64,000 nucleotides of DNA, taken from the IMG/VR virus record IMGVR_UViG_3300036944_000513, positions 37,644 to 101,643 of that record; one strand, written 5' to 3'. Positions 33,562 to 61,829 of this stretch are shown one piece after another. The notes under the pieces were generated by a model. The model did not search any database, had not been told where the DNA came from, and was given only the letters and a program-made list of their open reading frames with translations. Position 1 is the stretch's first letter. Every line of letters begins with the position of its first letter. A program made the translations under genes and the position numbers. Source of the stretch: a virus (lineage: Duplodnaviria > Heunggongvirae > Uroviricota > Caudoviricetes).

Positions 33562-34101
33562 TTACTTTTCTCCTTTTGCTAAAATTAGATTTTTACCAGT
33601 CTGCCAAATGCATTCTTCCAGAATTAAACCTTGTTTTACCGTTCCATCACATAAAATATGATATAAAGATTGAACAGTAATTTCAAATTCAACTCCCCGT
33701 GGATCTAAAATTTTAAACAATTTATTTCCACGATAACGATTCACTGTGTCAATCAATTTAAATCCACTGAGAGGAACATTATCCCATATTCGGGGAGCAT
33801 AGTCAAGCTCAATTGGTCTATCAAACTTAATTTCATTGCGTTGGCGAGTAACGGAGTCATATGCAAATGTTGATCCCCTTTCCCACCATTCGTTTCCATT
33901 TTTATATGCAGTTCCAGTATAAGCCCAATGCATTTGCGTTTCTTTACGCGCAGCATCGGTTTTTTTATTTGGTTCATGTGGATGAAGAAACCCAAAATTA
34001 TGGGATTCTTCATTATATGTATTCCAATCACCTTTAATTGGATAACTACGCTCAGAACGATTCTTTGAAACTACAAATATTTTATCTGGAATTTTAGTCA
34101 T
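33562..34101 (-). CDS. hypothetical protein
   Basis: 179 aa; ATGA overlap with the ligase gene. Confidence 0.5.
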   Translation of the reverse strand: MTKIPDKIFVVSKNRSERSYPIKGDWNTYNEESHNFGFLHPHEPNKKTDAARKETQMHWAYTGTAYKNGNEWWERGSTFAYDSVTRQRNEIKFDRPIELDYAPRIWDNVPLSGFKLIDTVNRYRGNKLFKILDPRGVEFEITVQSLYHILCDGTVKQGLILEECIWQTGKNLILAKGEK

Positions 34102-41221: not shown

Positions 41222-41409
41222 TCTGATAATCCTTTAATTAAATTTTGTATTTCTTCTTGGGTTAGATAGTATTTTTGTACCGTAGGTGCATCTTTTAATC
41301 CCAAATTTTCAGAGATTAATTTAACCTCTTTAATATTGAATTTTGGTATTTCACTGACTACCATTGTAAAACGGTATGCTGGGGTTTCACTGATAATAAA
41401 ATGTTTCAT
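41218..41409 (-). CDS. hypothetical protein
   Basis: 63-aa ORF coupled to its neighbours. Confidence 0.4.
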   Translation of the reverse strand: MKHFIISETPAYRFTMVVSEIPKFNIKEVKLISENLGLKDAPTVQKYYLTQEEIQNLIKGLSE

Positions 41410-43898
41410 GTAAATAATCCTTCAAGGGTTGCTTTGGGTTTGGCTGACCATTTGATGCCTTCCAAAATGGTGTTCAATGGTTCAATGAATGATTTTTCAA
41501 ACATCAAATCATAATCAATATATTTGTGAATATCGAATTCTGCGGGTATGTTATTTATAAATGCAATGCAGTTTTCTCCAATAGTATTTGGCTCTCTCAA
41601 GTAAATAAACTTAACTTTACTCCCTTCTTTAATTTCCTCATAAGTCATATCTAGCTTATGCTTCTTTAGATGGAAATTATAAAGCAATGATCCCCTTACA
41701 TGAATCGGAGTTGCTTTTTTGTATATCATTGAAGAATCGGTATACTTCATCAATCCATTAACGCCACGGGGAAATGCAATATTCTCAGGAGTCATTTTCA
41801 TATACTCAGCTTCAAACTTGGAGATATATTTCTGCAATTCGCTTTCGGTGGATGTTAAAGCCAGATTAACTGCCTTTTTTAACCCTTTACGGATTGGCTC
41901 AGGCGTAGACGATCTAACAATCTCCAATCCCATGACCTTCAATTTTGGTTCAGCGTATTGCACACCTTCATTGTTATAAACATTTAATGCGTATCGTTTC
42001 TTTGCTACCCAAATTCCTCTATCCGCAATTGCTTCGCGCTTAAAGAAAATCTTATTCTCAAATGCATTAGTATTATTTGCAAGTTTCTGACATGCAATAT
42101 TCAATTGCTTCTCAATCTTTTCTTTGCAAATCTTATCAAGAATTTCAATGATCTTTTCTTTGCTGGCATCTTTATAATACTTATCAACCAATGGGCCAAA
42201 TGTTACATAGCATGAATCGGTGTCTGAGTAGAATACATAATCGAACCCAACAGTACCACAGACACCATTCAAATAGTCATTCAATGCCGCAGCAACTTCA
42301 CGAATGATATATTGCCCAGTCATTGTAATACCTTCTGCGATATATGAATCATAGAATCTAAAGTATTCATTGGAGAATGCCCCGAACAATGAGTTAAGCA
42401 AAATCTTGTATGCCATTTGCTTATTATTGAACTTGGAAATCTCATTCAAATACTTTTTGTCCTTAGTATCCTCATACTTAGTCTGTGACGCAAGCATCAG
42501 CTTCTTTGCAGTCTGCCTATTACCAAATAGCTTTGCAGTAATCTCTGGAAACAATCCTTGCTTATCTCTGGAATAGCATCGACCATTTGACGCCATTGCA
42601 TAATCAACTTCTGTTAAGTCACTTAGATCAACATTATTTTTCAATAGCTGTTCAACGGTAATATCAAAGTGTTTAGTATAATTAGGAATTAATGTCTCGG
42701 GAGACATATTATATTGCATAATAATACTTGGATACAAACTTGTTGCATCAAATGATACTACCCAATCATACTGACCGGGAACTGGAGTCTGAACATATGC
42801 ACCAACAATGCTGCGAGAAGGCTTGTGATCCTTCTGCGGAATCATGATATTCTGTTTCCATAGGTGATTATATAAAATACAATCCCACGTTCTAACCGCA
42901 GAAAAGATATCCACGAAATTGCACTTGGCATCATATGCCATAGTCATAATCAAGTCAATAAGACGCATCTTATCTTCAAGTTGATCGACTCGTTCAACGT
43001 CAACAATATTGTATTCTACGAATAGATTCCAATCTTTTGTATAGAATTCCTTGAATGTGGAATATGGATTTTCAAGTTTACCTGCCCCCAATTCAAGTTT
43101 TGCAATATGATCTAGCTTATAACTTTCTTGCACGTTATAAGTAAACTTCTTATACAATTGCAGATAGTCTAGAATAGAAATGCCAAAAATATCATAAACG
43201 ATATCAATGGATTTTCCGCGTTCTATTTCTCTACGATTAACATTTTTCCACGGTGACAATCTATTAAGAAAATCTTTTCCAAGCATCTTCTCAATTCTGG
43301 CACATAAATAGCCAATGTCAAATAGTTCAACATTCCAGCCAGTGACAATATGCGGATAATCTCCCTCAAAGAACTCAATGACGCGCTTCAATAAACCAAT
43401 TTCACTGTGGCAGTTAATATATGTTTTATTCGGGTGAGTTTGCTCATATGGCTTTATGCCAAATGTAGTAATAGCCTTGGATACATTATCCTGAATAGAT
43501 ACCAGAATAACTTCTTCCATGGGGTCGGAAACATCGGGAAACCCATGCTCGACAGTAGTTTCAATATCGAGTGTCCAGATTTTCATCTGTGACGAATCAT
43601 ATTCTATTTCTTCGGGGAAAGTCTCGGTGATGTACTGATATGCGTAATTAGTATTCCCAAAGACTGGGAAGTTAGAAACTTCGCTGTACGTTTTCACATA
43701 TTCTTTGGCATCATTGATATCCGTAAACTTAATAGAATCAAGAGTATCGCCAAAAAGTGATTTGTATTTTGTTTGTTCTTTTGTTTTAACAAACAGGCTT
43801 GGGCGAAAGCCTACCTTTTCATGGACTTGCTTTCCTTCATTGATTCCGCGAACAAGAATCTTGTTTCCATACTGTATGACTGACGTATAAAATCGCAT
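41406..43898 (-). CDS. 43: DNA polymerase gp43 (family B, with 3'-5' exonuclease domain)
   Basis: Exo I DIETT; polymerase motifs DFTSLYPSI and YGDTDS-like (YSDTDSCYV); N- and C-termini align to T4 gp43. The start was moved to MRFY (AAGGA SD) at 43898. Confidence 0.9.
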   Translation of the reverse strand: MRFYTSVIQYGNKILVRGINEGKQVHEKVGFRPSLFVKTKEQTKYKSLFGDTLDSIKFTDINDAKEYVKTYSEVSNFPVFGNTNYAYQYITETFPEEIEYDSSQMKIWTLDIETTVEHGFPDVSDPMEEVILVSIQDNVSKAITTFGIKPYEQTHPNKTYINCHSEIGLLKRVIEFFEGDYPHIVTGWNVELFDIGYLCARIEKMLGKDFLNRLSPWKNVNRREIERGKSIDIVYDIFGISILDYLQLYKKFTYNVQESYKLDHIAKLELGAGKLENPYSTFKEFYTKDWNLFVEYNIVDVERVDQLEDKMRLIDLIMTMAYDAKCNFVDIFSAVRTWDCILYNHLWKQNIMIPQKDHKPSRSIVGAYVQTPVPGQYDWVVSFDATSLYPSIIMQYNMSPETLIPNYTKHFDITVEQLLKNNVDLSDLTEVDYAMASNGRCYSRDKQGLFPEITAKLFGNRQTAKKLMLASQTKYEDTKDKKYLNEISKFNNKQMAYKILLNSLFGAFSNEYFRFYDSYIAEGITMTGQYIIREVAAALNDYLNGVCGTVGFDYVFYSDTDSCYVTFGPLVDKYYKDASKEKIIEILDKICKEKIEKQLNIACQKLANNTNAFENKIFFKREAIADRGIWVAKKRYALNVYNNEGVQYAEPKLKVMGLEIVRSSTPEPIRKGLKKAVNLALTSTESELQKYISKFEAEYMKMTPENIAFPRGVNGLMKYTDSSMIYKKATPIHVRGSLLYNFHLKKHKLDMTYEEIKEGSKVKFIYLREPNTIGENCIAFINNIPAEFDIHKYIDYDLMFEKSFIEPLNTILEGIKWSAKPKATLEGLFT

Positions 43899-43946
43899 AA
43901 TATCCTTAGACTCAAATTCATATCTTACCACACCCCAACACGAATG

Positions 43947-44774
43947 TCAACTGATCGCACATGGAAATACCAATTCCTGAACAATTTCTTCTGCGGAGTA
44001 GCTGCTATAATAGCCCAAGTTTTTAAGTTTAGAATTATCCATGTACATTGACTTCACCTGTACAATTTTATGGAAGTCTGCCTGCGGAATATTCTTGATC
44101 TGAGATGTTGACAATGATATTTTTTTAGCATATCTAATAATATCACCAAAGTTCACTGGAATCCCATTGCCAACATTATAAATTGTATTATACTCGCCAA
44201 CAGTTACAATCATGTTGATTGCTCTACACAAGTCTGATACATGAATATAATCACGATAAAAATCACCGTTATCGTATAATTCAATATCTCTATTTGCGCT
44301 AATTTCATTAACAAGATATGTTAATGCATTTTTCTTTTTCGATACTTTTTTATCGTTTCCACCAACTACATTTGCAAATCTCAAAATGCGATACTTTATA
44401 TTAAAGGTTTCGCAGTATGAGATAAGCAACTGTTCAGCGGTGCGTTTGGTGATGGAATAAAATCCTTTTGGATTACATGGTGATGTTTCTTTTGCTGGCA
44501 ATTCGGTATCACCATAAACAAACCATGAACTAACAAAATTGAAAACTGTGTCAGGATTATCCTTACACTTTTCTAATACTCGCATGAGAGTTGTTAGATT
44601 AGTTTCAATATCTATAAAAGGATTTGTTGAAACCGAATAGTTATCAACTGTAGAAATCATGTATAAAATATCATTTAACTTTGGGGTCAAATCATTTCTA
44701 TCATTGACGATGCACATATACTTAGAAGCATATGCTGAACCAACATACCCCTTTCCACCAAACACATTAATCAT
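43947..44774 (-). CDS. NAD(P)-dependent SDR epimerase/reductase (nucleotide-sugar modifying)
   Basis: GGKGYVG Rossmann motif and a YSITK catalytic YxxxK. Confidence 0.55.
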   Translation of the reverse strand: MINVFGGKGYVGSAYASKYMCIVNDRNDLTPKLNDILYMISTVDNYSVSTNPFIDIETNLTTLMRVLEKCKDNPDTVFNFVSSWFVYGDTELPAKETSPCNPKGFYSITKRTAEQLLISYCETFNIKYRILRFANVVGGNDKKVSKKKNALTYLVNEISANRDIELYDNGDFYRDYIHVSDLCRAINMIVTVGEYNTIYNVGNGIPVNFGDIIRYAKKISLSTSQIKNIPQADFHKIVQVKSMYMDNSKLKNLGYYSSYSAEEIVQELVFPCAIS

Positions 44775-44783
44775 AATAAAATC

Positions 44784-45038
44784 TTATTGGTTAATAAATT
44801 CCATAAATGCAGTTTTAGTCATTCCACCAATCTTACGATGAGTCTCGACTCCATTTTCATCAAGTAAAACCAATGCAGGAATACTTCTGATATTGAATTT
44901 ATTTGCCATTTCAGTATTTTCGTCAATGTCAATATTTTCAAGTTCTACTGGCAACTCTTGAGAAATTCCGGCAATAGTATCTGACAACATTTTACATGGT
45001 TGGCACCATGTTGCATGGAACTTTAAAACTTTTTTCAT
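44784..45038 (-). CDS. thioredoxin-like protein
   Basis: WCQPCK active site; in-frame ATG with an ATGA overlap to the upstream gene. Confidence 0.65.
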   Translation of the reverse strand: MKKVLKFHATWCQPCKMLSDTIAGISQELPVELENIDIDENTEMANKFNIRSIPALVLLDENGVETHRKIGGMTKTAFMEFINQ

Positions 45039-45481
45039 ATCTTTTCCTCTATAATTTTTACATAATCGCTGCAAATAGCATAGCAATTGGTGGGTAACTT
45101 TTTAAATTCTGGATCATTCCATTCGGGTAAAACTGCAATGCTTTTTTGTGTCAACTCTTTATTTGGATATGCCCATATCCATTTATGGCTGGTTATAACA
45201 TAATCGTCATTTTGATGCCAAAAATAATTGTAGGAAGTATCGGTTAGCCAACGTAATGCGCCCAAGTTTTTTGCATGTATCCAAAATCCAATATCGTTTA
45301 AAAACTCCATTGATATTGGATATGTTGGTTCATCATGCCCCAAATAAAGTTCGGAGTGTATTACCCATAAATCTATTTCACAATCAAACCCAAGTTTTCT
45401 TGCTAACAAAATTTGTGCTGGGCTATTTTCTATGGCGGGATTTGGGCCATCAATTAAGCCACGATGGGCAATCAATTTCAT
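45035..45481 (-). CDS. glycerophosphodiester phosphodiesterase-like (GDPD) protein
   Basis: N-terminal IAHRG...EN...E.D..., characteristic of GP-PDE. Confidence 0.5.
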   Translation of the reverse strand: MKLIAHRGLIDGPNPAIENSPAQILLARKLGFDCEIDLWVIHSELYLGHDEPTYPISMEFLNDIGFWIHAKNLGALRWLTDTSYNYFWHQNDDYVITSHKWIWAYPNKELTQKSIAVLPEWNDPEFKKLPTNCYAICSDYVKIIEEKI

Positions 45482-46845
45482 TTTGTATTATTTAAGAAAT
45501 AATTCAAATCCTCTGGAGTACCAATTCCCCACATATTTTCAATTTCTTTGATTCTAATCTTTTTATTATCTTCAATTGCTTCATTGAAAACTGGACACAC
45601 ATAAAATTCATTGTTGACCCGAATATTTTTCTCGATCATTTTTTCCGCATATTTTACATAATCCGAGCCCTTAGACCAATAATATACCCCAACGGTTGCA
45701 TTATCGGAGATTGGTTTTTTCTCTGCAACTTCTGCGACAAACCCATCATCGCCAAGTCTTGCATAACTCCATTTTGGATGAGTGGATTTAAATGTTAACA
45801 TACCAGCATCTATTCCATCTGCTTTAAATGCATACATTACATTGTTGCTGTTCCATTCAATATACTGGTCACTGTTTGCAATGACAAGTGGATCATCGTT
45901 ATCAATCAAATCCTTTGCCAACAAAGTAGTACACGCTGCACCCTCAGTTATCCCATCCAATTGAACAATTTTACAATTTGGAGCAATTAGATTAAGCAAA
46001 TATTGCAAATTATACTTTTCATAATGTGATTTTTGAACTAAGAAAATATAGTTTGCTTGGATATTGAGATTCTCAACAACCACCTGAATCATCGGCTTAC
46101 CTCTAACATCAATTAAAGGCTTTGGAAATGTGTAGCCCTGAGTCTGGAATCTAGAGCCAGCCCCCGCCATAGGAATTAGCACATTTAACTTACTATCTTT
46201 CCATGGAATGGAAGTATTAACAGAATTTTTCATATCATTTATTTTATTAAATATTTTCTCAAATGTAACATCATGGCTATTTTCAACTGCCAATAAATTA
46301 GCGCCGCTATTTAATGCGCCTTCTCTTCCAATGTGACTATCTTCTACGATAATAGTATCTTTGGGCAATACATGCAATGCAGTCATACATTTCCAGTACA
46401 TTTCTGGATATGGTTTTGGGTGTTTAACGTCCTGATTACTTACAAAATAATCAACATACTCAATTACACCAATTTTTAGTAAACTTAATTTTACTGTTTC
46501 TCTGATGCTATTACTTGCAACGGCAATTAAATATCCGGCACTTTTAGCATACTTAAATATATCAATTAATTTTTTATCTATTGGAAAATTAGAAATCAAT
46601 TCCAATGTTGCAGATTGCTTCATTTCCCAAATTAAATTGTGGGAAGAGCTTGGCAATCCTTTTAACTTTGTTAAAATTTCTAATTTTTTAGTAGTATTTA
46701 ATCCATCATATGTAGAAAGATGTTCTTCTCTAGTAATTATATACTTCTCATCAATTTTAGCCAATGACATATTGAGTGTTTGGTAATGTAATTCTCTGCT
46801 TTCGATTAGAACTCCATCCAAATCAAATATTATAAGTTTATTCAT
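45478..46845 (-). CDS. bifunctional HAD-family phosphatase / sugar-phosphate nucleotidyltransferase
   Basis: N-terminal FDLDGVLIES (HAD motif I, beta-PGM-like); C-terminal LIPMAGAGSRF...PKPLIDVRGKPMI (NTP-transferase G-x-G-x-R motif). Confidence 0.6.
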   Translation of the reverse strand: MNKLIIFDLDGVLIESRELHYQTLNMSLAKIDEKYIITREEHLSTYDGLNTTKKLEILTKLKGLPSSSHNLIWEMKQSATLELISNFPIDKKLIDIFKYAKSAGYLIAVASNSIRETVKLSLLKIGVIEYVDYFVSNQDVKHPKPYPEMYWKCMTALHVLPKDTIIVEDSHIGREGALNSGANLLAVENSHDVTFEKIFNKINDMKNSVNTSIPWKDSKLNVLIPMAGAGSRFQTQGYTFPKPLIDVRGKPMIQVVVENLNIQANYIFLVQKSHYEKYNLQYLLNLIAPNCKIVQLDGITEGAACTTLLAKDLIDNDDPLVIANSDQYIEWNSNNVMYAFKADGIDAGMLTFKSTHPKWSYARLGDDGFVAEVAEKKPISDNATVGVYYWSKGSDYVKYAEKMIEKNIRVNNEFYVCPVFNEAIEDNKKIRIKEIENMWGIGTPEDLNYFLNNTK

Positions 46846-46851
46846 AATTAA

Positions 46852-47595
46852 TTATCTATGTAATGCCAATAGACGCATAGGATATCCAATAATATTATCG
46901 GTAGCGAATCTTTTAGCAAAAGTTGCAAATTTATATTTCTCTGGAATTGGGTCATCAATATCTTTATAAACATGATTTACATCATCAAACATATTGCTAG
47001 TCCATTCAAGGTATTTAGGATTAAATACTAATAGATTATCATCAAATGTTTTTCCATCAAAATCTACTCGTTGAGTATATAATTTATTCGGGTCAATTGT
47101 ATTTAAATTGGGAAGATCCCAAATCTGTGAATCATATCGTGTCATAACAACCGCATCATATTTAACCGAATTTTCAATTGAATATTTTTCAACTAGTTTT
47201 GATGCCTGCGAAATAGAATATAGTTGAGATAAAACATTACTATGATTAACTGTCCCAGCAGTCCACCACAAAGTTTTTGTTAAATTTTCATCGTGATATT
47301 TTTTAATCTCAGTATCATATTCAAATATTCTAGGCGGTTCAATCGTTAATATTTTAGGACGAAATACACTATTCAATACTAAAATTGAATCAGATAATTC
47401 GACTGGAACTTTTGAAATCTGTGACCAAGTAGAATTGACATATGTTTTATTCTTTCCAGACCACCATACATGCCCAAACACATCAGTATTATATTTTGAT
47501 AATATCTCATGATGCAATGTATTAACTACACTCCCATATTCAGGAGTATTGCTAACATGTCTAGCTTGCCCATAAAATAGTAGAGCAACTCTCAT
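46852..47595 (-). CDS. hypothetical protein (associated with the sugar locus)
   Basis: 247-aa ORF. Confidence 0.45.
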   Translation of the reverse strand: MRVALLFYGQARHVSNTPEYGSVVNTLHHEILSKYNTDVFGHVWWSGKNKTYVNSTWSQISKVPVELSDSILVLNSVFRPKILTIEPPRIFEYDTEIKKYHDENLTKTLWWTAGTVNHSNVLSQLYSISQASKLVEKYSIENSVKYDAVVMTRYDSQIWDLPNLNTIDPNKLYTQRVDFDGKTFDDNLLVFNPKYLEWTSNMFDDVNHVYKDIDDPIPEKYKFATFAKRFATDNIIGYPMRLLALHR

Positions 47596-47598
47596 ATG

Positions 47599-47892
47599 TT
47601 AGAGTTTACCGCCAACGATCTGAATGCCAGAACCAAAAATTCCGTTATATTGATTGTAAATTTCTTCGATGATATCGCCTTGCCAAATCACATGATTGGC
47701 TGAGATTTCAATTGAGTGGTCTTTGGTATATGGGCCATATGGAACCATTCCCATTGCTTGCTGTCCCGGCTGATCGCGGGATGGTACATATGCTAATGCG
47801 ACTGGCTTATCAATTCGCATTCTGTTATCTGGCAATGGAGTAACATCACCGATAATTTCTTCGCCGCTAATCAATTTAGTAATTTTAATCAT
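47599..47892 (-). CDS. hypothetical protein
   Basis: 97-aa ORF. Confidence 0.45.
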   Translation of the reverse strand: MIKITKLISGEEIIGDVTPLPDNRMRIDKPVALAYVPSRDQPGQQAMGMVPYGPYTKDHSIEISANHVIWQGDIIEEIYNQYNGIFGSGIQIVGGKL

Positions 47893-48101
47893 TTCATCAA
47901 TTCCTCTAATAATTCAAACGCTACATCTTCATTGTAGCACATTTTAAACATAATAATATTGCTATTACTATCTACGCATAACACTAATACTTGATCGCCA
48001 TAGGTGCTAACTTTTAAAATCCGAGAGCCATATCTAATAGCCCTCAGATCACAAAATTCTATGTGCTCACGCGCATTAGTCTTTTTTGGATACAAATCCA
48101 T
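47889..48101 (-). CDS. hypothetical protein
   Basis: 70-aa ORF. Confidence 0.4.
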   Translation of the reverse strand: MDLYPKKTNAREHIEFCDLRAIRYGSRILKVSTYGDQVLVLCVDSNSNIIMFKMCYNEDVAFELLEELMK

Positions 48102-48312
48102 ACATTTCTGTGGCTTTTTTAGTCAACTCATCAATTGAATATTGTGCTGGCGTAAAATCTTTCCATGTTTCAGCGGTGACTTTTCCGGCACTCAATGCAA
48201 CATCATATGCACGTTGTGCAAATTGCATATTGATTTCTTGTTGACGATCCATATAATCTTTAGCCATTGCCAAGATATCGGTACGAATTTCGAATGGGTT
48301 TTTATTTGACAT
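48076..48312 (-). CDS. hypothetical protein
   Basis: 78-aa ORF. Confidence 0.4.
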   Translation of the reverse strand: MSNKNPFEIRTDILAMAKDYMDRQQEINMQFAQRAYDVALSAGKVTAETWKDFTPAQYSIDELTKKATEMYGFVSKKD

Positions 48313-48555
48313 ATTTTTCCTTGTGTAGTGTGTTGTGATTATAGACCAAATTGTCTATTATGTCGATTCTTTTCATATTGATTTATCCAATATTCCACTT
48401 CATGAGTGGTAGTTGGATGCTTACTCGCAATGTATAGCTCAAGGTTATACTGTGAGTTCTGGTCTGGAAATATTTTATTGAATAATTCCGATAGATATTT
48501 TAACATGGTAATGTTTCTTTCTGTGATGTGTGTGTGATGTGTACGACATAGATAT

Positions 48556-49023
48556 TTATGCCTTAGTGGATTCAGTCAACAACTGTTTTTTAGATGTTGG
48601 CTTATAGTCACTAACTCCAATAGAAATTTTGCGTGGCTTCTTTTCTTCTGGTATAATCTTCTCGACATTGATTACGAGAATACCATTAGTCAATTCAGCA
48701 CTATTCACGACTACATGTTCTGCTAGTCTGAATGAACGCGAAAATTTGCGGGAAGAAATCCCTCTATGGGCATATGTTCTAGTATCTTCTTTTTCACCTG
48801 ATACAACCAAAGAATCATTTTCAACCTGAATGGTTAAATCTGATTCGGCAAATCCAGCAACAGCTAATTCAATAGCAAATTGGTTTTCACCAAGTTCTAT
48901 GATATTGTGTGGGGGATATGTTTCTTTTGCTGCGGTTGCAGATGATATTCGTTCAATTTCTTGGAACAATTGTTCAAAGCCGACGAATGAAGAACGTGGA
49001 ACGTAAAAATGATCTCTAGTCAT
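48556..49023 (-). CDS. small heat-shock protein (Hsp20/alpha-crystallin family)
   Basis: Alpha-crystallin-domain pattern FAIELAVAGF...L.I..........V.GE; 155 aa. Confidence 0.65.
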   Translation of the reverse strand: MTRDHFYVPRSSFVGFEQLFQEIERISSATAAKETYPPHNIIELGENQFAIELAVAGFAESDLTIQVENDSLVVSGEKEDTRTYAHRGISSRKFSRSFRLAEHVVVNSAELTNGILVINVEKIIPEEKKPRKISIGVSDYKPTSKKQLLTESTKA

Positions 49024-49120
49024 GAGAATCTCCTTAAAAGCAAGATTAAAAATGCCACCCCGAAGGCATGGCGGTAAATTCCAGCTTACTGTATACTGGG
49101 ATAGATATAAATTATACCCA

Positions 49121-49723
49121 TCAGATATGCTGAATTGTTCTTTTCAGCATTTTATTTATATTGACATAATCATCAATATAAAGATTTTTTCTCTGCGTAT
49201 TATTTACGCCTTCATCTAAATTAACTAACCAACCACCAAATGATACTAATCCAAATATATCAATGAGTTTTGATTCTAGACATAATGCTTCTTTTTCGGT
49301 AAGAGATGTTTTTAATATTTTTATTTGAATCTCTTTGCCGGATTTTTCTATCATTTGTCGCTTTTTACGATGACCATCATTGCGATTTATATTGTATGCC
49401 CGATCACCTTCGCCTTTACCGACATAAAATGGCAAATGCTCTATTCCCAATGTTGAAGCAAATGCAATTTTACCATTGGCATCTGCTTTCAATTTAAAAA
49501 ATGGATCGCAATGAACATAAACATAAAATTTTCTTTCATCAGACGATTCAATATCATTATAAAGATGAGCTATATCATATTCATGGATATAATTACATGA
49601 ATCAAAAACAGATGAATGCATTTTTTTCTGCACTTTATCTACTACTATTAATTGATTTAGCCGTCGATCTATTTTAGATCGCAGCGCCTTTAAATGTTCT
49701 ATCGAATCCCAATCTATATGCAT
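49121..49723 (-). CDS. GIY-YIG homing endonuclease (free-standing)
   Basis: FYVYVHCDP...PFYVGKGEGDR is a GIY-YIG signature; conserved E and N residues occur downstream. Confidence 0.6.
   Translation of the reverse strand: MHIDWDSIEHLKALRSKIDRRLNQLIVVDKVQKKMHSSVFDSCNYIHEYDIAHLYNDIESSDERKFYVYVHCDPFFKLKADANGKIAFASTLGIEHLPFYVGKGEGDRAYNINRNDGHRKKRQMIEKSGKEIQIKILKTSLTEKEALCLESKLIDIFGLVSFGGWLVNLDEGVNNTQRKNLYIDDYVNINKMLKRTIQHI
49153..49160 (-). promoter_or_regulatory. T4-type late promoter box TATAAATA (minus strand)
   Basis: Exact box about 130 nt upstream of the sHSP start, embedded in the 3' end of the endonuclease gene. Confidence 0.35.
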
Positions 49724-49985
49724 ACAGCTTCCTTTAAGAAACCGGTTACAAATCCGGTGATGCCTTATCGGAGCATCTGCTCGATTTTCCCGCTATATGT
49801 TAATCAAGTGGCGTTGATATTTTTTTACGTTACATATAGTACAACGGACGCCTGAAATTGCCATTGCTGGCAGCTTCTAACCGTTAGCATCAAACGGCCC
49901 CAAGGTAGGGTGAATCGGCACCGCTGGATAATTTTACTAGCCTTCAACGGTATGCTAGTTCCCATCCCTGAGAATATTTAACTAT

Positions 49986-50283: not shown

Positions 50284-50721
50284 TTATACTGAATCTTGTT
50301 TCTTTTTACCAATATTATATTTAGTTTCAAGTGTCCAATCATATTTTTCTTTGAAAGAAATAACTTTGATCTGGGATAATGGAGCAGTATCTTCAAAATC
50401 CTTTGCATCAATAATGGTGATTAATCCCCAATCAACGAGCAATTTTGCAATTGTATTTCTACGTTGAATGTCATTCTCAGCCAAATCAGCAACTTTTCCA
50501 TCAAGCGCAAAAAGTTCTTTAAAGTGAACAATAAAGTAGCGACCTTGTTTATGTAAAATATGGCAAGACTGAAATAAAGTCTTATCCTTACGAGAAGCTA
50601 CACCAATTCTAGTAAGCGTTTCACGCACCTTTAAGAAATCATCTGGTTCTTTTAATACTATTTCCAACGGCTTATAGCCGGGGAAATTAATGTGAAATAC
50701 ATCATCTGCCATTACGTCCAC
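50284..50721 (-). CDS. regA: RegA translational repressor
   Basis: LKEPDDFLKVRETLTRIGVASRKDKTLFQSCHILHKQGRYFIVHFKE aligns closely with T4 RegA. Confidence 0.9.
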   Translation of the reverse strand: MDVMADDVFHINFPGYKPLEIVLKEPDDFLKVRETLTRIGVASRKDKTLFQSCHILHKQGRYFIVHFKELFALDGKVADLAENDIQRRNTIAKLLVDWGLITIIDAKDFEDTAPLSQIKVISFKEKYDWTLETKYNIGKKKQDSV

Positions 50722-53096: not shown

Positions 53097-53792
53097 TCAA
53101 GTATTTAAAAGCGATTGGCATTTTTCATAAAAACGCTTTTGATTTCCGGGCATTCTGATTTGGAAATTATGATAAGACATTTCTCCAATAGAATCATTGC
53201 CATACGTTGTTCCAATGCCATATACTGGCATGCCATCGGCTAGGGGCCAATTGGGAGCTTCTCTGGGAGCAGCTTCAAATTTGATGGGCATAAACAACTC
53301 AATAGGTATATTACACTCTTCTGCCTTAAAAGTCAATTCTTCTGCCATATCTCCGCGATAAGTTTCTCTAAAAGATGGGCGACCAATTTTATTATAAGTT
53401 TCCATACTAAATGCAATCAAACTTGGAGCAGCAAATACGTGTTGATTATTTTGAATATGATTTGATCGTTGAGCATTACCAATTAAAATTCCTGATGCAG
53501 ATTGGGTGGCGAGGTAATCCAATGTTTTATCGGACAATGGAACACAATCAATATCAAGAATGATAATATTATCATATCCCATATCGTCTCTGGAATCATT
53601 AAGTTTAATAAATTCATCTACTCCATCTCCATTGTTATCAACCGTGGGCATTGGGCATTGCACCCGAATATGTGGAAATTTAGATACATTAAATTTTTCA
53701 ACCACCTGTCGTTGAGCCTCAACTGTTGCCTCATGAATGTTTGGCATAAAAAATGATACGATGCAAGTTCTCATGTGTTTTCTTCTTTCCAT
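53097..53792 (-). CDS. putative GT-A-fold glycosyltransferase (DxD motif)
   Basis: IIILDIDCVP is DxD-like; 231 aa. The start may instead be the second ATG, at 53774. Confidence 0.4.
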   Translation of the reverse strand: MERRKHMRTCIVSFFMPNIHEATVEAQRQVVEKFNVSKFPHIRVQCPMPTVDNNGDGVDEFIKLNDSRDDMGYDNIIILDIDCVPLSDKTLDYLATQSASGILIGNAQRSNHIQNNQHVFAAPSLIAFSMETYNKIGRPSFRETYRGDMAEELTFKAEECNIPIELFMPIKFEAAPREAPNWPLADGMPVYGIGTTYGNDSIGEMSYHNFQIRMPGNQKRFYEKCQSLLNT

Positions 53793-54619
53793 TGTTTAAT
53801 GTGTTCAATAACGTCAATTTTTGGGTTCCAGTTAGGAACATTATTCTTTGTACAAATTGTATCTTGCAACTCATACTTTCTATCCTCGATAAGCTGCAAT
53901 GGATGGGTAAATGCTCTAGCCAATTCCATAATAGATACATTTTTACCGGTTCCAAGATGATATGCATCTTCATAATCAGTAACATTAACTAAAATGTTCA
54001 ATGCGTCAACTGTATCTTCGACTGAGGTAAAATCGCGTTTACGAGTACCATCGCCAACAATTGTAAGTGGCTTATTTTCCAATACTAGCTGCTTGAATTT
54101 TCTAATGACGGTGGTATGTTCTCCGAGATCTTTTTCTCTCATTGAACCATATACGTTGTAGAATTTAACCAGACTATTTTGAATTTTGAATACTGTGCGA
54201 TAGAATTCTAATAGATAATCACACATATATTTTGAGAACGTATATGGATTATTGAATCTATCGGTAAATTCGGTAGTAGAAGATGACGCAAAGAATAAAT
54301 GACCTGAGCCAGTACGTCTAATATATTCACATAATGCAACAGTGCTGTTGTAATTATTTAATAGAGTTTCCTCTGTATATTCAAACGATCTAACAATTCT
54401 GGCACAGTTTGCAAGATGAAAAATCTTATCATACTTATAATCAAACTTGTGGCAAAACTCATCAACGCCCATTACAAAGGTTATGGCTTTATCATTTCTA
54501 TTTTCGAGTTTACCTGTGCTAATATTATCGACTACATGAACTTCATGTCCGCCATCAATAAATTTATCAACAAGATGACTTCCAACAAAGCCAAGCCCAC
54601 CTGTCACTAAAATTTTCAT
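53771..54619 (-). CDS. NAD-dependent sugar epimerase/dehydratase (SDR extended family)
   Basis: MKILVTGGLGFVGSHLV (GxxGxxG) and a YxxxK motif (YTFSK). Confidence 0.7.
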   Translation of the reverse strand: MKILVTGGLGFVGSHLVDKFIDGGHEVHVVDNISTGKLENRNDKAITFVMGVDEFCHKFDYKYDKIFHLANCARIVRSFEYTEETLLNNYNSTVALCEYIRRTGSGHLFFASSSTTEFTDRFNNPYTFSKYMCDYLLEFYRTVFKIQNSLVKFYNVYGSMREKDLGEHTTVIRKFKQLVLENKPLTIVGDGTRKRDFTSVEDTVDALNILVNVTDYEDAYHLGTGKNVSIMELARAFTHPLQLIEDRKYELQDTICTKNNVPNWNPKIDVIEHIKQWKEENT

Positions 54620-55368
54620 TATTTACTTTCTTTCACCCAAGGTAATTTGCCGTTTAAATAATTCGACATTACCTTATTACCATTTATAAAAAATTCTTTT
54701 TGCACAGAATTTGGAGTATTACCTGCTCGGTAATTAACTGAGTATTTATACGTAGAATCAAAATCCAGATACTTATTACTCAAGAAATTATAAATTGCCC
54801 TATCAATTTCCATGACTCCCGGCTGTCTAAATTTCCTATACCAAATTGGCGACATTTCTATTGCAATATTTTTTGGAATAATGTAACAATTTACATCAAC
54901 AAAAAAGTCATTTGAATTTATAACAGTATGCCATTGCCCAAGACTTTCACAGTTATCTTGGCACAAGAAATTGCTATCTGCATCAATGATGTTTCTAAGG
55001 GAATATGCCCATACATTAGGCTTCTTAGTCACTGCATGTACCATTGATGCTACGTGGCCTCTTTCTAACGTGTTATCGTCATCCAGATAGATGACATAAT
55101 CACCTTTCATTAGATAAGTACACGCACCATAAATTCGATGCCCATTGTATCCATCTTCGCCAACTGAATATGGCAAAATAATGAATTCAGTATTTGCGTT
55201 ACCATACTTATAGATAGCGCTCATGGCATCGCCTTGGCGGTGTTTACCATCAACTACTACCAGATGTTGTATGTTCTTATATGTTTGCTCTGCAACGCTT
55301 TTAAGAGTGTACTCCAGAAATTTGGAGCCAGTGGTCGCAGTTATAATTGTTACTAATGGTTCAGACAT
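54619..55368 (-). CDS. family 2 glycosyltransferase
   Basis: TIITATTGSKFLEYTLKSVAEQTY...VVVDG...YLDDDN (GT2 DxD). Confidence 0.65.
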   Translation of the reverse strand: MSEPLVTIITATTGSKFLEYTLKSVAEQTYKNIQHLVVVDGKHRQGDAMSAIYKYGNANTEFIILPYSVGEDGYNGHRIYGACTYLMKGDYVIYLDDDNTLERGHVASMVHAVTKKPNVWAYSLRNIIDADSNFLCQDNCESLGQWHTVINSNDFFVDVNCYIIPKNIAIEMSPIWYRKFRQPGVMEIDRAIYNFLSNKYLDFDSTYKYSVNYRAGNTPNSVQKEFFINGNKVMSNYLNGKLPWVKESK

Positions 55369-56074
55369 TTGATTTATATCCCTTTATCATTCTATCATCA
55401 AAGACCCAAAGATGGTCTATATCATATTTTTTTCTGTAATGCCAAATATCAGGCTCAGAAATTTCAAGTCGCGGCGTAACTGGTTTGGTATGCTTTACTG
55501 GATACTTATCAATGAATGCAACCCAGCCACCTAACTCAGTTCTACCAGTATAAGATTCTAGCACCCATTGCCAAGAATATTCTAATCCATATCCCATACT
55601 ATATGGAGCAGTATCAAAGTCAAATACGCAATTAGCAAATGCTTTTTGCGAGAAAAATGGACACATGATTTCAACAGTATTAGTTATCCTAAAATCATAT
55701 CCTTCATGTTTCAATGTCTGGGGATGCGATATGTAACTATCATGAGTCAAAGTTGGCTGGCATAAATCAAATTTATGATACTTTGCCATTTTAAAAATAT
55801 TGTCTATTGTTTCTGGCGTAGTTTCAATATCATCATCAATATTTCCAATAAACTCATACTTAGAATATATTTCAGGAGTTATATGACGCTTCATCAATGG
55901 GAATTTATATCCCTTGTCTTTTATTACCCACTTTGCTTTATTAATAACTTCGGGTGAGTAATCCGCATCATCATAAATCAATAAAAAAACATCAAAGTTG
56001 TATTGAGAATAATCTCCCCACTTTTGATGTAATGCATCTTTACCGCAACATATTACTAGTAAATTTGGCTTCAT
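55361..56074 (-). CDS. putative nucleotide-diphospho-sugar transferase-like protein
   Basis: LLIYDDAD and GNIDDD acidic motifs; 237 aa. Confidence 0.4.
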   Translation of the reverse strand: MKPNLLVICCGKDALHQKWGDYSQYNFDVFLLIYDDADYSPEVINKAKWVIKDKGYKFPLMKRHITPEIYSKYEFIGNIDDDIETTPETIDNIFKMAKYHKFDLCQPTLTHDSYISHPQTLKHEGYDFRITNTVEIMCPFFSQKAFANCVFDFDTAPYSMGYGLEYSWQWVLESYTGRTELGGWVAFIDKYPVKHTKPVTPRLEISEPDIWHYRKKYDIDHLWVFDDRMIKGYKSNV

Positions 56075-57069
56075 AAAAATACATCCTTAAATTTGCTCAT
56101 TACCAACTCAGGGGAGAATGATTTAACTCTTTTACTCCATTCAATATTAGTCATGCTAGGCAACTCTTGAATTTTATCAATTAAATTTGATTCTTCATAA
56201 AGAAGTCCAGAGTTATTTAACATCAAAAGATGATTTAAGTCATGTCCACCATTAAATGCTAATATCGGCTTATTTAAGTATAGAAATTCTGCAATGGATA
56301 GTCCAAAAGATTCGCCCCGCATTCTAGCATGAATTCCCGCATCGCATGAATTGATAATATCAGTTTTTAATTGAACATCATGAATCTCTTGCGTAAATTT
56401 TACATTTGGATGATTTATCCATGGAGCAGTGCCAATAAACAAGAATACAAATTTATCGGTTTTAGATACCAAATATTCAATTTGCTTTTTAACAAACTCA
56501 ATATCAAAAGTATAATATCCACCAATTCTACCAATTAAAAATTGATCAGGTCTTACGCCAAGCATATCTCTATAATTCTTGGTTGGCTCCGGCAACTTTA
56601 CAATATGTGGAACATATGGAACTTTTTGTTTTGTGATAGAATATACATGCCTAGATAGCCATTCTGAAATATATGCATACCTATCTCCATGCGGCTCAAA
56701 TTCTTGAAACACGCAATGCACAGCAGTCTTGGCAGTATTAATAACTTTCTCATCAAATGCATCATATGGAAGTTCTTGTGCTTTGCAACCAGCCTTAATA
56801 AAATATGCAAGATCGAGATTTTCTTTCTCGCATATGTTACTAACTTCTCTGAATGCATGATCGCCATTATAACCAATAACTTCAAATTCTTCTTTGAATT
56901 TATCTATTACTGCTTGCTCGTTGCCTTCATCTTTTACATATTTGTGATTAGAATTATATAAGATTACGCTTTCATTCCCCAATATTTCTTGGTTATATCT
57001 AGCGTAATCTCGTACTGCAACAGCAACACCTCTATAATTTAGAGTATGTGTATGAAACAGAACTTTCAT
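56071..57069 (-). CDS. GT-B glycosyltransferase (GT4-like)
   Basis: The C-terminal GESFGLSIAEFLYLNKPILA matches the GT4 E-x7-E region. Confidence 0.55.
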   Translation of the reverse strand: MKVLFHTHTLNYRGVAVAVRDYARYNQEILGNESVILYNSNHKYVKDEGNEQAVIDKFKEEFEVIGYNGDHAFREVSNICEKENLDLAYFIKAGCKAQELPYDAFDEKVINTAKTAVHCVFQEFEPHGDRYAYISEWLSRHVYSITKQKVPYVPHIVKLPEPTKNYRDMLGVRPDQFLIGRIGGYYTFDIEFVKKQIEYLVSKTDKFVFLFIGTAPWINHPNVKFTQEIHDVQLKTDIINSCDAGIHARMRGESFGLSIAEFLYLNKPILAFNGGHDLNHLLMLNNSGLLYEESNLIDKIQELPSMTNIEWSKRVKSFSPELVMSKFKDVFL

Positions 57070-58361
57070 CAGTTATCCCATTTTTCCAATACAGACTCGA
57101 TATATGAAAATACCGCATCATTATAATGAGGTGGGCAACCAACAAAGAATACATGACTCAATGCCCGATTTGCATTTGGATATTTTGTATAGTCATCTAG
57201 ATGTTTGTAACCGGGATGCATTAGAATATTGCCAGCAAAATAGTTGCGAGTTTGAATCTTATTTGCTTCTAAGTGTTTTTGCAAACGTTCTTTTTGAATT
57301 TGGCTACGGCAAATAATAGGAACTCCAAACCAACTTGGATCAGCTAGATCATGATGTGATGCAACACGAATTCCGTTGACATGATTAGTCAAAATACTTT
57401 GAAACTTAATTTTATTCTCTCGGCGAGACTTGTCAACAATTTCCATTTTGTCAAGTTGTGCCAATCCGATGGAACCTTGCATATCCAATGGCTTTAGATT
57501 GTATCCCATGTTTGTAAATAGATACTTGTGGTCAATGACGCCCTCATAGCCATCAAGCCACTTATCAAAGCGTTTGCCGCATGTGCCACATGGCAATAGA
57601 TTATTAGCACCTACGCAGTAGCAATCACGACCCCACCATGCAATGCTTCTAACAGTATTCATGAAATCTGCATCATTGGAGCAAATCATTCCACCTTCAC
57701 CCGTAGTAATATGATGAGCAGGATAGAACGAAGTTGTCCATGCAGTATAATATTCAGTTAGAAATTCACCATTCCAGCGTGAACCAAGACTATCGCAGTT
57801 ATCACCAATCAACATGATATCATGGTCAAATGCAAGTTGTTGCAAATAATCCATATCAGGAGGATTGCCCAATACTGGAGACACGAAAATAGCTACAGTT
57901 TTATCAGTAATCTTTTCTGCAATCTTTGTTACATCAAAGTTTAATGTATTGAGTTCAATATCAACGAATACTGGAGTAAGATTGTTTTGTGCAATTGGCG
58001 CAATTGTAGTTGGGAATCCAACGGGAGAAACAATAATCTCTGCACCATCTTCCCATTTATAGAATTTTTTAAGTGCAGTAATAAGCACTAGATTGGCTGA
58101 ACTGCCAGAGTTAACCATGTGTGCATGTTCGACATTGAACATGGTAGCAAACTTCTCTTGAAACTTCTGAACTTGTTCACCTGATGGCAACCATGCACCA
58201 GTTAGAAAAGTCTTCATTGCACCATAAATTTCATTATGATCCCACAATGGGCCAGCATAATAAACGGGACTTACTCCGGGAACAAATGTTTCTTGATTGT
58301 AGGTGTATGGAGGCTTAACAGTTTTGCTAATTTCCATGAGAATTTCATCTAGATTTTCCAT
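57069..58361 (-). CDS. DegT/DnrJ/EryC1-family PLP-dependent enzyme (CDP-4-keto-6-deoxyglucose 3-dehydrase DdhC/RfbH-like)
   Basis: 430 aa with N-terminal region and overall length typical of E1 dehydrases and sugar aminotransferases; SGSSANL. Confidence 0.6.
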   Translation of the reverse strand: MENLDEILMEISKTVKPPYTYNQETFVPGVSPVYYAGPLWDHNEIYGAMKTFLTGAWLPSGEQVQKFQEKFATMFNVEHAHMVNSGSSANLVLITALKKFYKWEDGAEIIVSPVGFPTTIAPIAQNNLTPVFVDIELNTLNFDVTKIAEKITDKTVAIFVSPVLGNPPDMDYLQQLAFDHDIMLIGDNCDSLGSRWNGEFLTEYYTAWTTSFYPAHHITTGEGGMICSNDADFMNTVRSIAWWGRDCYCVGANNLLPCGTCGKRFDKWLDGYEGVIDHKYLFTNMGYNLKPLDMQGSIGLAQLDKMEIVDKSRRENKIKFQSILTNHVNGIRVASHHDLADPSWFGVPIICRSQIQKERLQKHLEANKIQTRNYFAGNILMHPGYKHLDDYTKYPNANRALSHVFFVGCPPHYNDAVFSYIESVLEKWDN

Positions 58362-61811: not shown

Positions 61812-61829
61812 ATAATAAAGGATTTTAGA

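What the first reader, a model, noticed from the sequence alone, without database searches (positions are those of the whole stretch)
43947..47595. Sugar-nucleotide and redox gene insertion between gene 43 and regA
In T4, regA directly follows gene 43. Here about 6 kb is inserted between them. It contains an SDR epimerase/reductase, a thioredoxin (WCQPC), a glycerophosphodiester phosphodiesterase-like protein, a HAD-phosphatase/nucleotidyltransferase fusion (which would make an NDP-sugar or NDP-polyol from a phosphorylated precursor), two unknown ORFs, an Hsp20 and a GIY-YIG endonuclease. The HAD-NT fusion plus the GDPD suggests synthesis or turnover of a CDP-alcohol- or phospho-sugar-type donor. 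That would be a precursor pathway feeding the glycosyltransferase clusters further downstream.
Basis: partly seen in the sequence, partly recalled or inferred. Interest (0 to 1): 0.55.

Follow-up and report, generated by a model that had tools for sequence, protein, structure and literature searches.

The report
Phage sugar-activation cassette with mini-phosphodiesterase
An uncultured marine T4-like phage carries, next to its DNA polymerase gene, a five-gene cassette for making and transferring an activated sugar; its core, a phosphatase-nucleotidyltransferase fusion paired with an unusually small phosphodiesterase, is a widespread but uncharacterised module also found in the cell-surface sugar loci of abundant ocean bacteria.

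Summary
The genes are real and at the stated coordinates. All lie on the minus strand, tightly packed or overlapping. In order they are a 247-aa GT-A-fold glycosyltransferase, a HAD-nucleotidyltransferase (NT) fusion, a 148-aa minimal GDPD-fold protein, a thioredoxin and an extended SDR.

The "6 kb insertion" holds only against T4. Cyanomyoviruses normally have Hsp20 and small ORFs between regA and gene 43. The true extras are the 3.65-kb cassette and a separate ~750-bp GIY-YIG indel.

The conserved core is NT + HAD + mini-GDPD.
- Of 45 dereplicated mini-GDPD loci, 43 have the NT and 38 a HAD protein within 5 kb.
- Two MAGs fuse these domains into one protein.
- The module sits in SAR11 and OM43 LPS/O-antigen loci.

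The NT belongs to the uncharacterised 4EVW family and is closest to hexose-1-phosphate NTs, not CDP-alcohol enzymes. Related operons add an isomerase and a kinase, as in the heptose pathway.

Best reading: a phosphosugar is converted to sugar-1-P, then to an NDP-sugar, then tailored and transferred to a glycan. The mini-GDPD step is unknown. The sugar, the nucleotide and the acceptor are unidentified.

Sugar-gene islands in cyanophages are known; this module has not been described.

The parts
46852..47595 (-). 247-aa GT-A-fold glycosyltransferase-like protein (PHROG 13607, unknown function; no Pfam family).
46231..46845 (-). HAD domain (aa 1-205) of the fusion protein. Subfamily IA, beta-phosphoglucomutase-like. 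Acts as a phosphosugar phosphatase or mutase.
   Evidence: HAD_2 E 1.6e-26. TIGR02009 scores 85 bits, below its cut-off of 153. D8, D10, H20, K76, S114, K145, E169 and D170 equivalents are conserved across the family. The beta-PGM distal-phosphate residues R49, K117 and N118 are not.
45478..46191 (-). Nucleotidyltransferase domain (aa 219-455, plus stop) of the fusion. 4EVW-type sugar-phosphate NT.
   Evidence: PF00483 scores 40.6 bits against a cut-off of 21.2. Single sequence versus PDB: 4EVW E 3e-14. Family profile: 4EVW E 3e-40, then GMPP, RmlA, GlmU and HddC. The conserved PMAGxGSRF...PKPL motif is present. More than 8000 homologous clusters.
45035..45481 (-). 148-aa minimal GDPD-fold phosphodiesterase (mini-GDPD; PHROG 34507, unknown function). 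Overlaps the fusion gene and the thioredoxin gene by 4 nt each.
44784..45038 (-). 84-aa thioredoxin (WCQPC). An accessory specific to this lineage.
   Evidence: PF00085 E 1.2e-17. Present in the close relatives L004, L089 and L090 but in none of the other fetched loci. No homologue among cultured cyanophages.
43947..44774 (-). 275-aa extended SDR. Probably an NDP-(keto)sugar reductase or epimerase.
   Evidence: Epimerase E 5e-29. GxxGxxG and S...YxxxK are present, and there is no TDE dehydratase motif (sequence). Homologues at 46-48% identity in phages S-B05, S-B43 and S-H68 follow a 4,6-dehydratase and an RmlC-like gene, which is the RmlD position.
41406..43931 (-). Gene 43 DNA polymerase. 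Downstream boundary of the cassette, 15 nt after the SDR stop.
   Evidence: About 49% aa identity to cyanomyovirus gp43.
47599..48506 (-). Four small ORFs (97, 70, 78 and 55 aa). Variable junction genes, not part of the sugar cassette.
   Evidence: Only the 97-aa ORF hits PHROGs (527, 471, 431; best E 4e-13), none informative for function. Present in relative L089. Not found in cyanophages L087 and L088.
48556..49023 (-). Hsp20 small heat-shock protein. Resident gene of this junction in cyanomyoviruses.
   Evidence: PF00011 E 1e-19. Hsp20 lies between regA and gene 43 in many cyanomyoviruses.
49095..49843 (-). About 750-bp indel carrying the GIY-YIG-like ORF (49121-49723). A separate mobile insertion.
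   Evidence: Absent from the 86-92% identical relative L089. The GIY-YIG and homing-endonuclease profile hits are weak.
50284..50721 (-). regA translational repressor. Upstream boundary of the interval.
   Evidence: 70-72% aa identity to cyanophage regA. PF01818 hits the orthologue in L089.
53097..58361 (-). Second glycan island, the likely consumer or partner pathway. Contains a 231-aa DxD protein, a 282-aa SDR, a GT2, a DUF707 protein, a GT4-like protein and an RfbH-like PLP enzyme.
   Evidence: The RfbH model NF011936 scores E 1e-109 (367 bits), below its cut-off of 423.

Best explanation
The block 43947-47595 is a five-gene cassette that is probably co-transcribed. It makes a nucleotide-activated sugar and transfers it to a glycan. 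It sits in the variable junction between Hsp20 and gene 43 of an uncultured marine T4-like myovirus.

Proposed flow (inferred):
1. The HAD domain yields a sugar-1-phosphate. It would do so by removing the distal phosphate of a sugar bisphosphate (the GmhB/AfhF role) or by acting as a 6-P to 1-P mutase.
2. The fused NT condenses the sugar-1-phosphate with an NTP to give an NDP-sugar.
3. The 275-aa SDR reduces or epimerises the sugar moiety.
4. The GT-A-fold protein and the glycosyltransferases of the neighbouring islands transfer it to an acceptor. The acceptor is either a host envelope polysaccharide or a virion protein.

The 148-aa mini-GDPD is an obligate partner of the NT. It keeps the GDPD catalytic residues, so it should act on a phosphodiester or on the NDP-linked phosphate.
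- My preferred guess is that it transfers sugar-1-phosphate from the NDP-sugar to an acceptor hydroxyl, releasing NMP.
- Alternatively it supplies or recycles the phosphosugar by hydrolysis.

The thioredoxin is a lineage-specific add-on.

Shown: gene identities, folds, conservation, linkage and fusions. Inferred: every substrate, the reaction order and the acceptor.
For: The genes overlap by 4 nt or are 3-15 nt apart. No minus-strand terminator-like site lies between Hsp20 and gene 43.

Linkage. Of 45 dereplicated mini-GDPD loci with at least 4 kb on both sides, 43 have the NT within 5 kb. 38 have a HAD protein and 23 have the 247-aa family.

Fusions. NT+mini-GDPD occurs in L102, and NT-miniGDPD-HAD-NT occurs in L114.

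A recurring five-gene operon is HAD, PfkB kinase, NT-RpiB isomerase fusion, cupin, mini-GDPD. Its first three genes supply the isomerase, kinase, phosphatase and NT steps. That is the logic of NDP-heptose synthesis and of the phage UDP-arabinose pathway (PMC13326640).

In one lineage a PMM-type HAD mutase fills the HAD slot (PF03332, E 8e-22).

The module lies in O-antigen-type loci of OM43 and SAR11, next to Wzx, Wzy_C, GT2 and rmlABCD. In phages it lies inside glycosyltransferase clusters.

SDR homologues occupy the RmlD position in other cyanophage clusters.
Against: - The cassette encodes no kinase, no isomerase and no 4,6-dehydratase. The entry substrate and the SDR's substrate must therefore come from the host or from elsewhere in the phage genome.
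- The HAD domain lacks the beta-PGM distal-phosphate residues, so mutase activity is not supported by sequence.
- The closest solved NT structure, 4EVW, has no assigned function, so neither the nucleotide nor the sugar can be named.
- No GDPD-fold enzyme is known to me to work as a sugar-phosphate transferase (own knowledge), so that part is speculation.
- Expression and the acceptor are untested.
Confidence: 0.55

Rival explanations
1. A phospho-alditol or phosphodiester decoration pathway, of the teichoic-acid or Hib-capsule type. The NT makes a CDP-alditol from a pentose-phosphate-derived alditol phosphate, with the SDR acting as a ribulose-5-P-type reductase. The mini-GDPD transfers the alditol phosphate to the glycan, forming a phosphodiester. 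The HAD domain trims a terminal phosphate, as the CrpP domain of Bcs3 does.
For: The NT is fused to an RpiB/LacAB pentose-phosphate isomerase in several lineages. An SDR lies next to the module in the window and in OM43. GDPD chemistry centres on phosphodiesters. HAD phosphatases and NT-SDR fusions work this way in Haemophilus Bcs1/Bcs3 (own knowledge).
Against: The NT family profile prefers hexose- and heptose-1-P NTs (1e-12 to 1e-8) over inositol-1-P (1e-5) and ribitol-5-P (3e-4) cytidylyltransferases. The SDR is an extended NDP-sugar type, and its homologues sit in the RmlD position. Operons with kinase, phosphatase, isomerase and NT point to sugar-1-P formation.
Confidence: 0.2
2. A precursor pathway for DNA hypermodification. 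The cassette would make an NDP-sugar for glycosylating phage DNA, like the UDP-arabinose genes of RB69, DLP3 and HY126.
For: It is a T4-like phage and the cassette sits within the replication gene cluster. The phosphatase-plus-NT logic has a precedent in T-even-like phages (PMC13326640).
Against: The same module sits in bacterial O-antigen loci with Wzx and Wzy_C. In phages it lies inside multi-glycosyltransferase clusters far from replication genes. The ORFs I scanned show no hydroxy(methyl)pyrimidine synthase, but I profiled only part of the window and the window is only part of the genome. A junction that holds different genes in different phages explains the position.
Confidence: 0.07
3. 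A small-molecule or phosphorus-economy function. Either the cassette makes a glycosyl-glycerol-type solute (NDP-sugar plus glycerol-3-P, then dephosphorylation by HAD). Or the mini-GDPD scavenges phosphate or glycerol-3-P from glycerophosphodiesters during infection.
For: NT, GT-A protein and HAD phosphatase together match the generic scheme of compatible-solute synthesis, and GDPDs release glycerol-3-P (own knowledge). Marine phages often carry phosphate-acquisition genes (own knowledge).
Against: The mini-GDPD has no signal peptide. It is tied to one NT family, including by fusion, rather than to pho genes. The surrounding genes are polysaccharide-assembly genes such as Wzx, Wzy_C and WecG. 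Its invariant aromatic residues suggest a sugar ligand, which is an inference.
Confidence: 0.06

Closest known systems
NDP-heptose pathway (GmhA isomerase, HldE/HddA kinase, GmhB HAD phosphatase, HldC/HddC nucleotidyltransferase) and the phage UDP-arabinose pathway (AfhE kinase-NT, AfhF HAD phosphatase; PMC13326640)
   Same: A HAD phosphatase works just before a sugar-1-P NT. Related operons add a PfkB kinase and an isomerase in the same logic. HddC-type structures are among the PDB matches.
   Different: Here HAD and NT are fused. The HAD domain is subfamily IA (beta-PGM-like), not IIIA. The window cassette has no kinase or isomerase. The isomerase in relatives is RpiB-type, not SIS. A mini-GDPD partner, which neither known pathway has, is nearly always present.
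Glycerophosphodiester phosphodiesterases (GDPD, PF03009; e.g. UgpQ, GlpQ, TM1621/1O1Z)
   Different: 148 aa against about 220-330 aa. Most helices on one side of the barrel and the GDPD insertion domain are missing. There is no Pfam match. In my manual alignment the third metal ligand appears to be His, not Glu. It is cytoplasmic and is genetically tied to a nucleotidyltransferase.
4EVW, a Vibrio cholerae 'nucleoside-diphosphate-sugar pyrophosphorylase' (structural-genomics entry, function unassigned)
   Same: Same NT family over its full length (profile E 3e-40).
   Different: 4EVW stands alone, with no HAD domain. Its substrate and genomic partners are not known to me, and the only paper in the library that mentions it does not treat its function.
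Cyanophage 'cell wall synthesis and modification' / LPS gene islands (P-SSM2, S-SCSM1, S-SCSM2R; PMC12801897)
   Same: Glycosyltransferases, NDP-sugar epimerases and nucleotidyltransferases carried by T4-like marine phages. Their role is proposed, not shown, to be host-surface modification.
   Different: Here the cassette lies in the replication-gene junction between Hsp20 and gene 43, not in the hli/petE/talC hypervariable region. The HAD-NT/mini-GDPD module itself is not mentioned in that paper.

Membership tests
GDPD (PF03009) phosphodiesterases | Eight-stranded TIM-barrel fold of GDPD type | tested here: met
GDPD (PF03009) phosphodiesterases | Catalytic motifs HR(G), EN, ExD and HD | tested here: met
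   H6/R7, E18/N19, E35/D37 and H49/D50 are invariant in 42 sequences. Mapping to the canonical motifs is my own comparison.
GDPD (PF03009) phosphodiesterases | Match to the family's sequence model, and full-length domain with the GDPD insertion | tested here: not met
   No Pfam or NCBIfam hit at E<=0.01. 148 aa against 217-328 aa for the matched structures. I therefore file it as GDPD-fold and GDPD-like, not as a canonical GDPD.
GDPD (PF03009) phosphodiesterases | Glycerophosphodiester hydrolase activity | not testable with these tools
   Needs an enzyme assay.
HAD superfamily, beta-phosphoglucomutase subfamily | HAD motifs I-IV (DxD nucleophile and acid, S/T, K, E/D-D) | tested here: met
   D8, D10, S111, K144 and E168/D169 are conserved in the family (S111 in 90%, the others in all). 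H20 and K76 equivalents are also invariant. HAD_2 E 1.6e-26.
HAD superfamily, beta-phosphoglucomutase subfamily | Beta-PGM distal-phosphate site (R49, K117, N118) and the curated model score | tested here: not met
   These residues are replaced. TIGR01990 scores 73.8 bits against a cut-off of 189, and TIGR02009 scores 85 against 153. It is not a bona fide beta-PGM.
Sugar-1-phosphate nucleotidyltransferases (PF00483) | Pfam gathering score and the N-terminal G-x-G-[ST]-R ... K signature | tested here: met
   40.6 bits against 21.2. The MAGxGSRF...PKPL motif is conserved.
Sugar-1-phosphate nucleotidyltransferases (PF00483) | Membership of a characterised specificity group (RmlA, GlmU, GalU, ManC, HddC, MurU, IspD/TarI, LicC) | tested here: not met
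   All NCBIfam equivalog scores are far below their cut-offs, for example rmlA_long 50 against 320. The only close PDB relative is the unassigned 4EVW.
Extended SDR NDP-sugar epimerase/reductase | Rossmann GxxGxxG, catalytic S/T...YxxxK, Pfam Epimerase | tested here: met
   GGKGYVG, VSS and YSITK are in the sequence. PF01370 scores 101.8 bits.
Extended SDR NDP-sugar epimerase/reductase | Assignment to RmlD, GalE or 4,6-dehydratase equivalogs | tested here: not met
   rmlD scores 15 against 224, galE 64 against 262, and the dehydratase 86 against 365. There is no TDE motif. Only gene order in S-B05 and S-H68 suggests a reductase role.
GT-A fold glycosyltransferases (247-aa ORF) | GT-A Rossmann-like fold | tested here: met
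GT-A fold glycosyltransferases (247-aa ORF) | DxD metal and nucleotide-sugar binding motif; membership of a named family | tested here: inconclusive
Thioredoxin | Thioredoxin fold model and CxxC active site | tested here: met
   PF00085 scores 64.3 bits against 23.5. The motif is WCQPC. TIGR01068 scores 72.5, below its cut-off of 96.8, so it is not the housekeeping equivalog.
Phage DNA arabinosylation (Afh) system | Arabinose-5-P isomerase, kinase-NT bifunctional enzyme, HAD phosphatase, 5-hydroxycytosine synthase and DNA glycosyltransferases | tested here: not met
   Of the precursor enzymes, the cassette has only the HAD and NT functions. It has no SIS isomerase, no kinase and no thymidylate-synthase homologue. 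Features are taken from PMC13326640. The rest of the genome was not available.
GIY-YIG homing endonuclease (49121-49723) | GIY-YIG catalytic domain match; presence/absence polymorphism | tested here: inconclusive
   Pfam E 0.005, below the cut-off. PHROG homing endonuclease E 3.6e-5. The ~750-bp segment is absent from relative L089, which fits mobility.

The most novel reading that the evidence does not exclude
The 148-aa mini-GDPD is a new enzyme class. It would be among the smallest natural TIM-barrel enzymes, working docked to (or fused with) its dedicated nucleotidyltransferase. It would use the NDP-activated product as a phosphoryl donor, transferring sugar-1-phosphate or polyol-phosphate to an acceptor to form phosphodiester-linked glycan decorations. 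That would be a soluble route distinct from the Stealth, LicD and TagF-type transferases. It would be shared by marine phages and by the surface-glycan loci of SAR11 and OM43.
Probability: 0.15. Interest if true: 0.8.

Novelty: new variant of a known kind. Interest (0 to 1): 0.5.

Why it matters
Glycan-gene islands are common in marine phages and in the hypervariable surface loci of SAR11, OM43 and picocyanobacteria. These loci are thought to govern phage adsorption and grazing, yet their chemistry is largely unknown.

This cassette isolates a compact and very abundant module. The mini-GDPD family has at least 2138 clusters and the NT family more than 8000. The module is shared by virus and host loci and has no assigned function.

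Working out its product would name a surface sugar or phospho-sugar of some of the most abundant organisms in the ocean. It would also show whether phages copy or alter that sugar.

The mini-GDPD is of interest to protein scientists in its own right, as an extremely reduced TIM barrel that keeps a full catalytic set.

Tried and rejected
- The promoter scan was uninformative: 39 sites found against 39.5 expected.
- The small ORFs of 55-97 aa are not conserved in cyanophages L087 and L088, so the junction has no fixed 'native' content beyond Hsp20.
- The C-terminal extension of the L114 fusion gave faint LigT/2H phosphoesterase hits (E 0.005-0.007). The PDB search did not back them, so I dropped the cyclic-phosphate support.
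- The afdb50 fold library was unavailable.
- I considered the 282-aa SDR at 53771-54619 as the missing 4,6-dehydratase and rejected it. It has no TDE motif and is too short.
- I considered recent horizontal acquisition of the cassette and rejected it for this lineage. The cassette is 87% identical to relative L089, the same as the flanking core genes at 86%. GC content is only slightly lower over the 247-aa ORF.
- The beta-PGM identity of the HAD domain is rejected.
- Literature searches for the module, for 4EVW and for a cyanophage GDPD found nothing relevant.

Full report
**1. What is there**

The interval between regA (50284-50721) and gene 43 (41406-43931) is 6.35 kb. It is filled with minus-strand ORFs. 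In order of transcription they are:
- a 95-aa DUF6321 protein;
- a 200-aa GIY-YIG-like ORF;
- Hsp20;
- four small ORFs of 55, 78, 70 and 97 aa;

The flagged block contains five genes:
- a 247-aa ORF (46852-47595);
- a 455-aa HAD-nucleotidyltransferase (NT) fusion (45478-46845);
- a 148-aa ORF (45035-45481);
- an 84-aa thioredoxin with WCQPC (44784-45038);
- a 275-aa extended SDR (43947-44774).

Pfam and NCBIfam confirm the SDR, the thioredoxin, both halves of the fusion, and Hsp20. They give nothing for the 148-aa and 247-aa proteins.

The five genes overlap by 4 nt or are 3-15 nt apart. No minus-strand terminator-like site lies between Hsp20 and gene 43. Co-transcription with the replication genes is therefore likely. 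The promoter scan was no better than chance.

**2. How much of it is an insertion**

The phage is an uncultured marine T4-like myovirus. Its gp43 is only about 49% identical to any cultured cyanomyovirus, so the host is not established.

Cyanomyoviruses carry regA, Hsp20, two to five small ORFs and then gene 43. The content of this junction varies. One phage has a nucleotidyltransferase there and another a 2OG-Fe(II) oxygenase.

So Hsp20 is resident, and the T4 comparison overstates the event.

A metagenomic relative (L089) is 86-92% identical over the interval. It has the same five-gene cassette at the same place. It lacks a ~750-bp segment (window 49095-49843) that carries the GIY-YIG-like ORF. 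That ORF is therefore a separate mobile indel.

The cassette is as diverged from L089 (87%) as the flanking core genes are (86%). It has been inherited vertically within this lineage.

**3. The two unknown proteins**

*The 148-aa protein.*
- Its family has at least 2138 clusters. The 120 listed are 146-167 aa, and none carries a Pfam domain.
- H6/R7, E18/N19, E35/D37 and H49/D50 are invariant. So are H69, K71, W88, H89 and E120.
- The model is confident (pLDDT 94.6).
- The top five Foldseek hits agree.

It is thus an eight-stranded GDPD-type barrel. It has lost most helices on one side and the GDPD insertion domain, but it keeps the catalytic set.

**4. The conserved module**

In cultured phages the fusion, the mini-GDPD and the 247-aa family co-occur only in Synechococcus phages. 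There they lie inside glycosyltransferase clusters near hli, petE and talC, not at gene 43.

I analysed 45 dereplicated mini-GDPD loci (31 viral, 14 genomic) that have at least 4 kb on both sides. The families found within 5 kb were:

| Neighbour family | Loci out of 45 |
|---|---|
| NT | 43 |
| HAD protein | 38 |
| 247-aa family | 23 |
| Cupin | 12 |
| SDR | 11 |
| RpiB isomerase | 7 |
| Kinase | 7 |
| FkbM methyltransferase | 5 |

Two MAGs encode fusions:
- NT+mini-GDPD (L102);
- NT-miniGDPD-HAD-NT (L114).

The module also lies in LPS/O-antigen-type loci of cellular genomes:
- In a complete OM43 genome it sits next to rmlBDAC, GT2 genes and Wzx.
- In SAR11 single-cell genomes it sits next to Wzy_C, GT2, WavE, Wzx and WecG.

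**5. What the module probably does**

A profile of the NT family matches the unassigned structure 4EVW at E 3e-40. Next come mannose-1-P, glucose-1-P, GlcNAc-1-P and heptose-1-P NTs at 1e-12 to 1e-8. Inositol-1-P and ribitol-5-P cytidylyltransferases score far lower.

The HAD domain belongs to the beta-phosphoglucomutase subfamily. It keeps the catalytic residues, including the H20 and K76 equivalents. It lacks the distal-phosphate site of true beta-PGM.

Context helps most.
- Several viral loci carry the five-gene operon HAD, PfkB kinase, NT-RpiB isomerase fusion, cupin, mini-GDPD.
- Its first three genes supply the isomerase, kinase, phosphatase and NT steps. That is the sequence of NDP-heptose synthesis and of the recently described phage UDP-arabinose pathway (PMC13326640).
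- In another lineage a PMM-type HAD mutase fills the HAD slot.

I therefore infer that the HAD domain delivers a sugar-1-phosphate to the NT, which makes an NDP-sugar.

SDR homologues in phages S-B05, S-B43 and S-H68 follow a 4,6-dehydratase and an RmlC-like gene. This suggests a keto-reductase or epimerase role.

The window also holds two further glycan islands:
- 53097-58361, which includes an RfbH-like PLP enzyme at E 1e-109;
- one starting at 61203.

These could consume or extend the product.

**6. The open step**

Nothing known explains why a phosphodiesterase-type enzyme should be tied to an NT.
- It is cytoplasmic.
- It is the last gene of the operons where gene order was examined.
- It is rich in invariant aromatic residues.
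- It lacks the lid domain.

My preferred guess is a phosphotransfer from the NDP-sugar that forms a phosphodiester. Hydrolytic supply or recycling of the phosphosugar is the alternative. Both are speculation.

The thioredoxin recurs only in the closest relatives. It has no homologue among cultured cyanophages, so I treat it as an add-on.

**7. Rivals**

A CDP-alditol, teichoic-acid-like route is the strongest rival. The RpiB fusions and the adjacent SDRs fit it. The NT's affinities and the kinase-containing operons argue against it.

DNA glycosylation is unlikely, because the module sits in bacterial O-antigen loci. I could not inspect the rest of the phage genome.

Solute synthesis and phosphate scavenging fit the surrounding genes poorly.

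**8. Verdict**

Sugar-gene islands in T4-like marine phages are already known (PMC12801897). The HAD-NT/mini-GDPD module and the minimal GDPD barrel are not described in the literature I could search. The finding is a new variant of a known kind, of moderate interest.

Noticed in passing
window 49095-49843: A ~750-bp segment with a GIY-YIG-like ORF is absent from the 86-92% identical relative L089. L089 instead has an extra 92-aa ORF (L089 4858-5136) that the window lacks. This looks like homing-endonuclease-type indel turnover at the junction.
   Followed up: partly
window 53097-58361: A second glycan island lies just upstream of the gene 45 clamp. It holds a 231-aa protein with a DxD motif, a 282-aa SDR, a GT2, a DUF707 protein, a GT4-like protein and an RfbH-like PLP enzyme (E 1e-109, just below the curated cut-off). 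The last hints at a 3,6-dideoxy- or amino-sugar branch.
   Followed up: partly
window 61203-63579: A third sugar-related group lies on the plus strand. It holds an FkbM-type methyltransferase, a calcineurin-like metallophosphoesterase and a GT4 glycosyltransferase.
   Followed up: no
window 34098-35144 and 19911-20810: There are two RNA ligase genes, one with PHA02142 OB plus RNA_ligase domains and one T4 Rnl1-like. An SPFH/Band 7 protein lies at 32574-33371.
   Followed up: no
L070 5565-6731; L007 6543-7694; L117 2166-3323: The same NT family is fused to an RpiB/LacAB sugar-phosphate isomerase (PF02502, E 2e-32). It is preceded by a small HAD protein and a PfkB kinase, and followed by a cupin and the mini-GDPD.
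   Followed up: partly
L006 6209-7402; L053 5571-6764; L025 6811-8004: A 397-aa RuBisCO-like protein (PF00016, E 6e-37) sits just upstream of the mini-GDPD in large viral contigs. It is directly adjacent in L025 and one or two genes away in L006 and L053. In L025 no NT is nearby. Class II aldolase and split transketolase genes occur in S-SM2, Bellamy and L091. Together these suggest unusual ketose-phosphate chemistry feeding the module.
   Followed up: no
L102 7227-8435; L114 7218-10511: Single proteins combine NT+mini-GDPD (402 aa, Methanosarcinales MAG) and NT-miniGDPD-HAD-NT plus an unassigned C-terminal region of about 230 aa (1097 aa, gammaproteobacterial MAG).
   Followed up: partly
window 41406-43931: gp43 is only about 49% identical to the nearest cultured phages, which are all cyanomyoviruses. 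The window therefore represents a deep, uncultured T4-like marine lineage whose host is unknown.
   Followed up: partly
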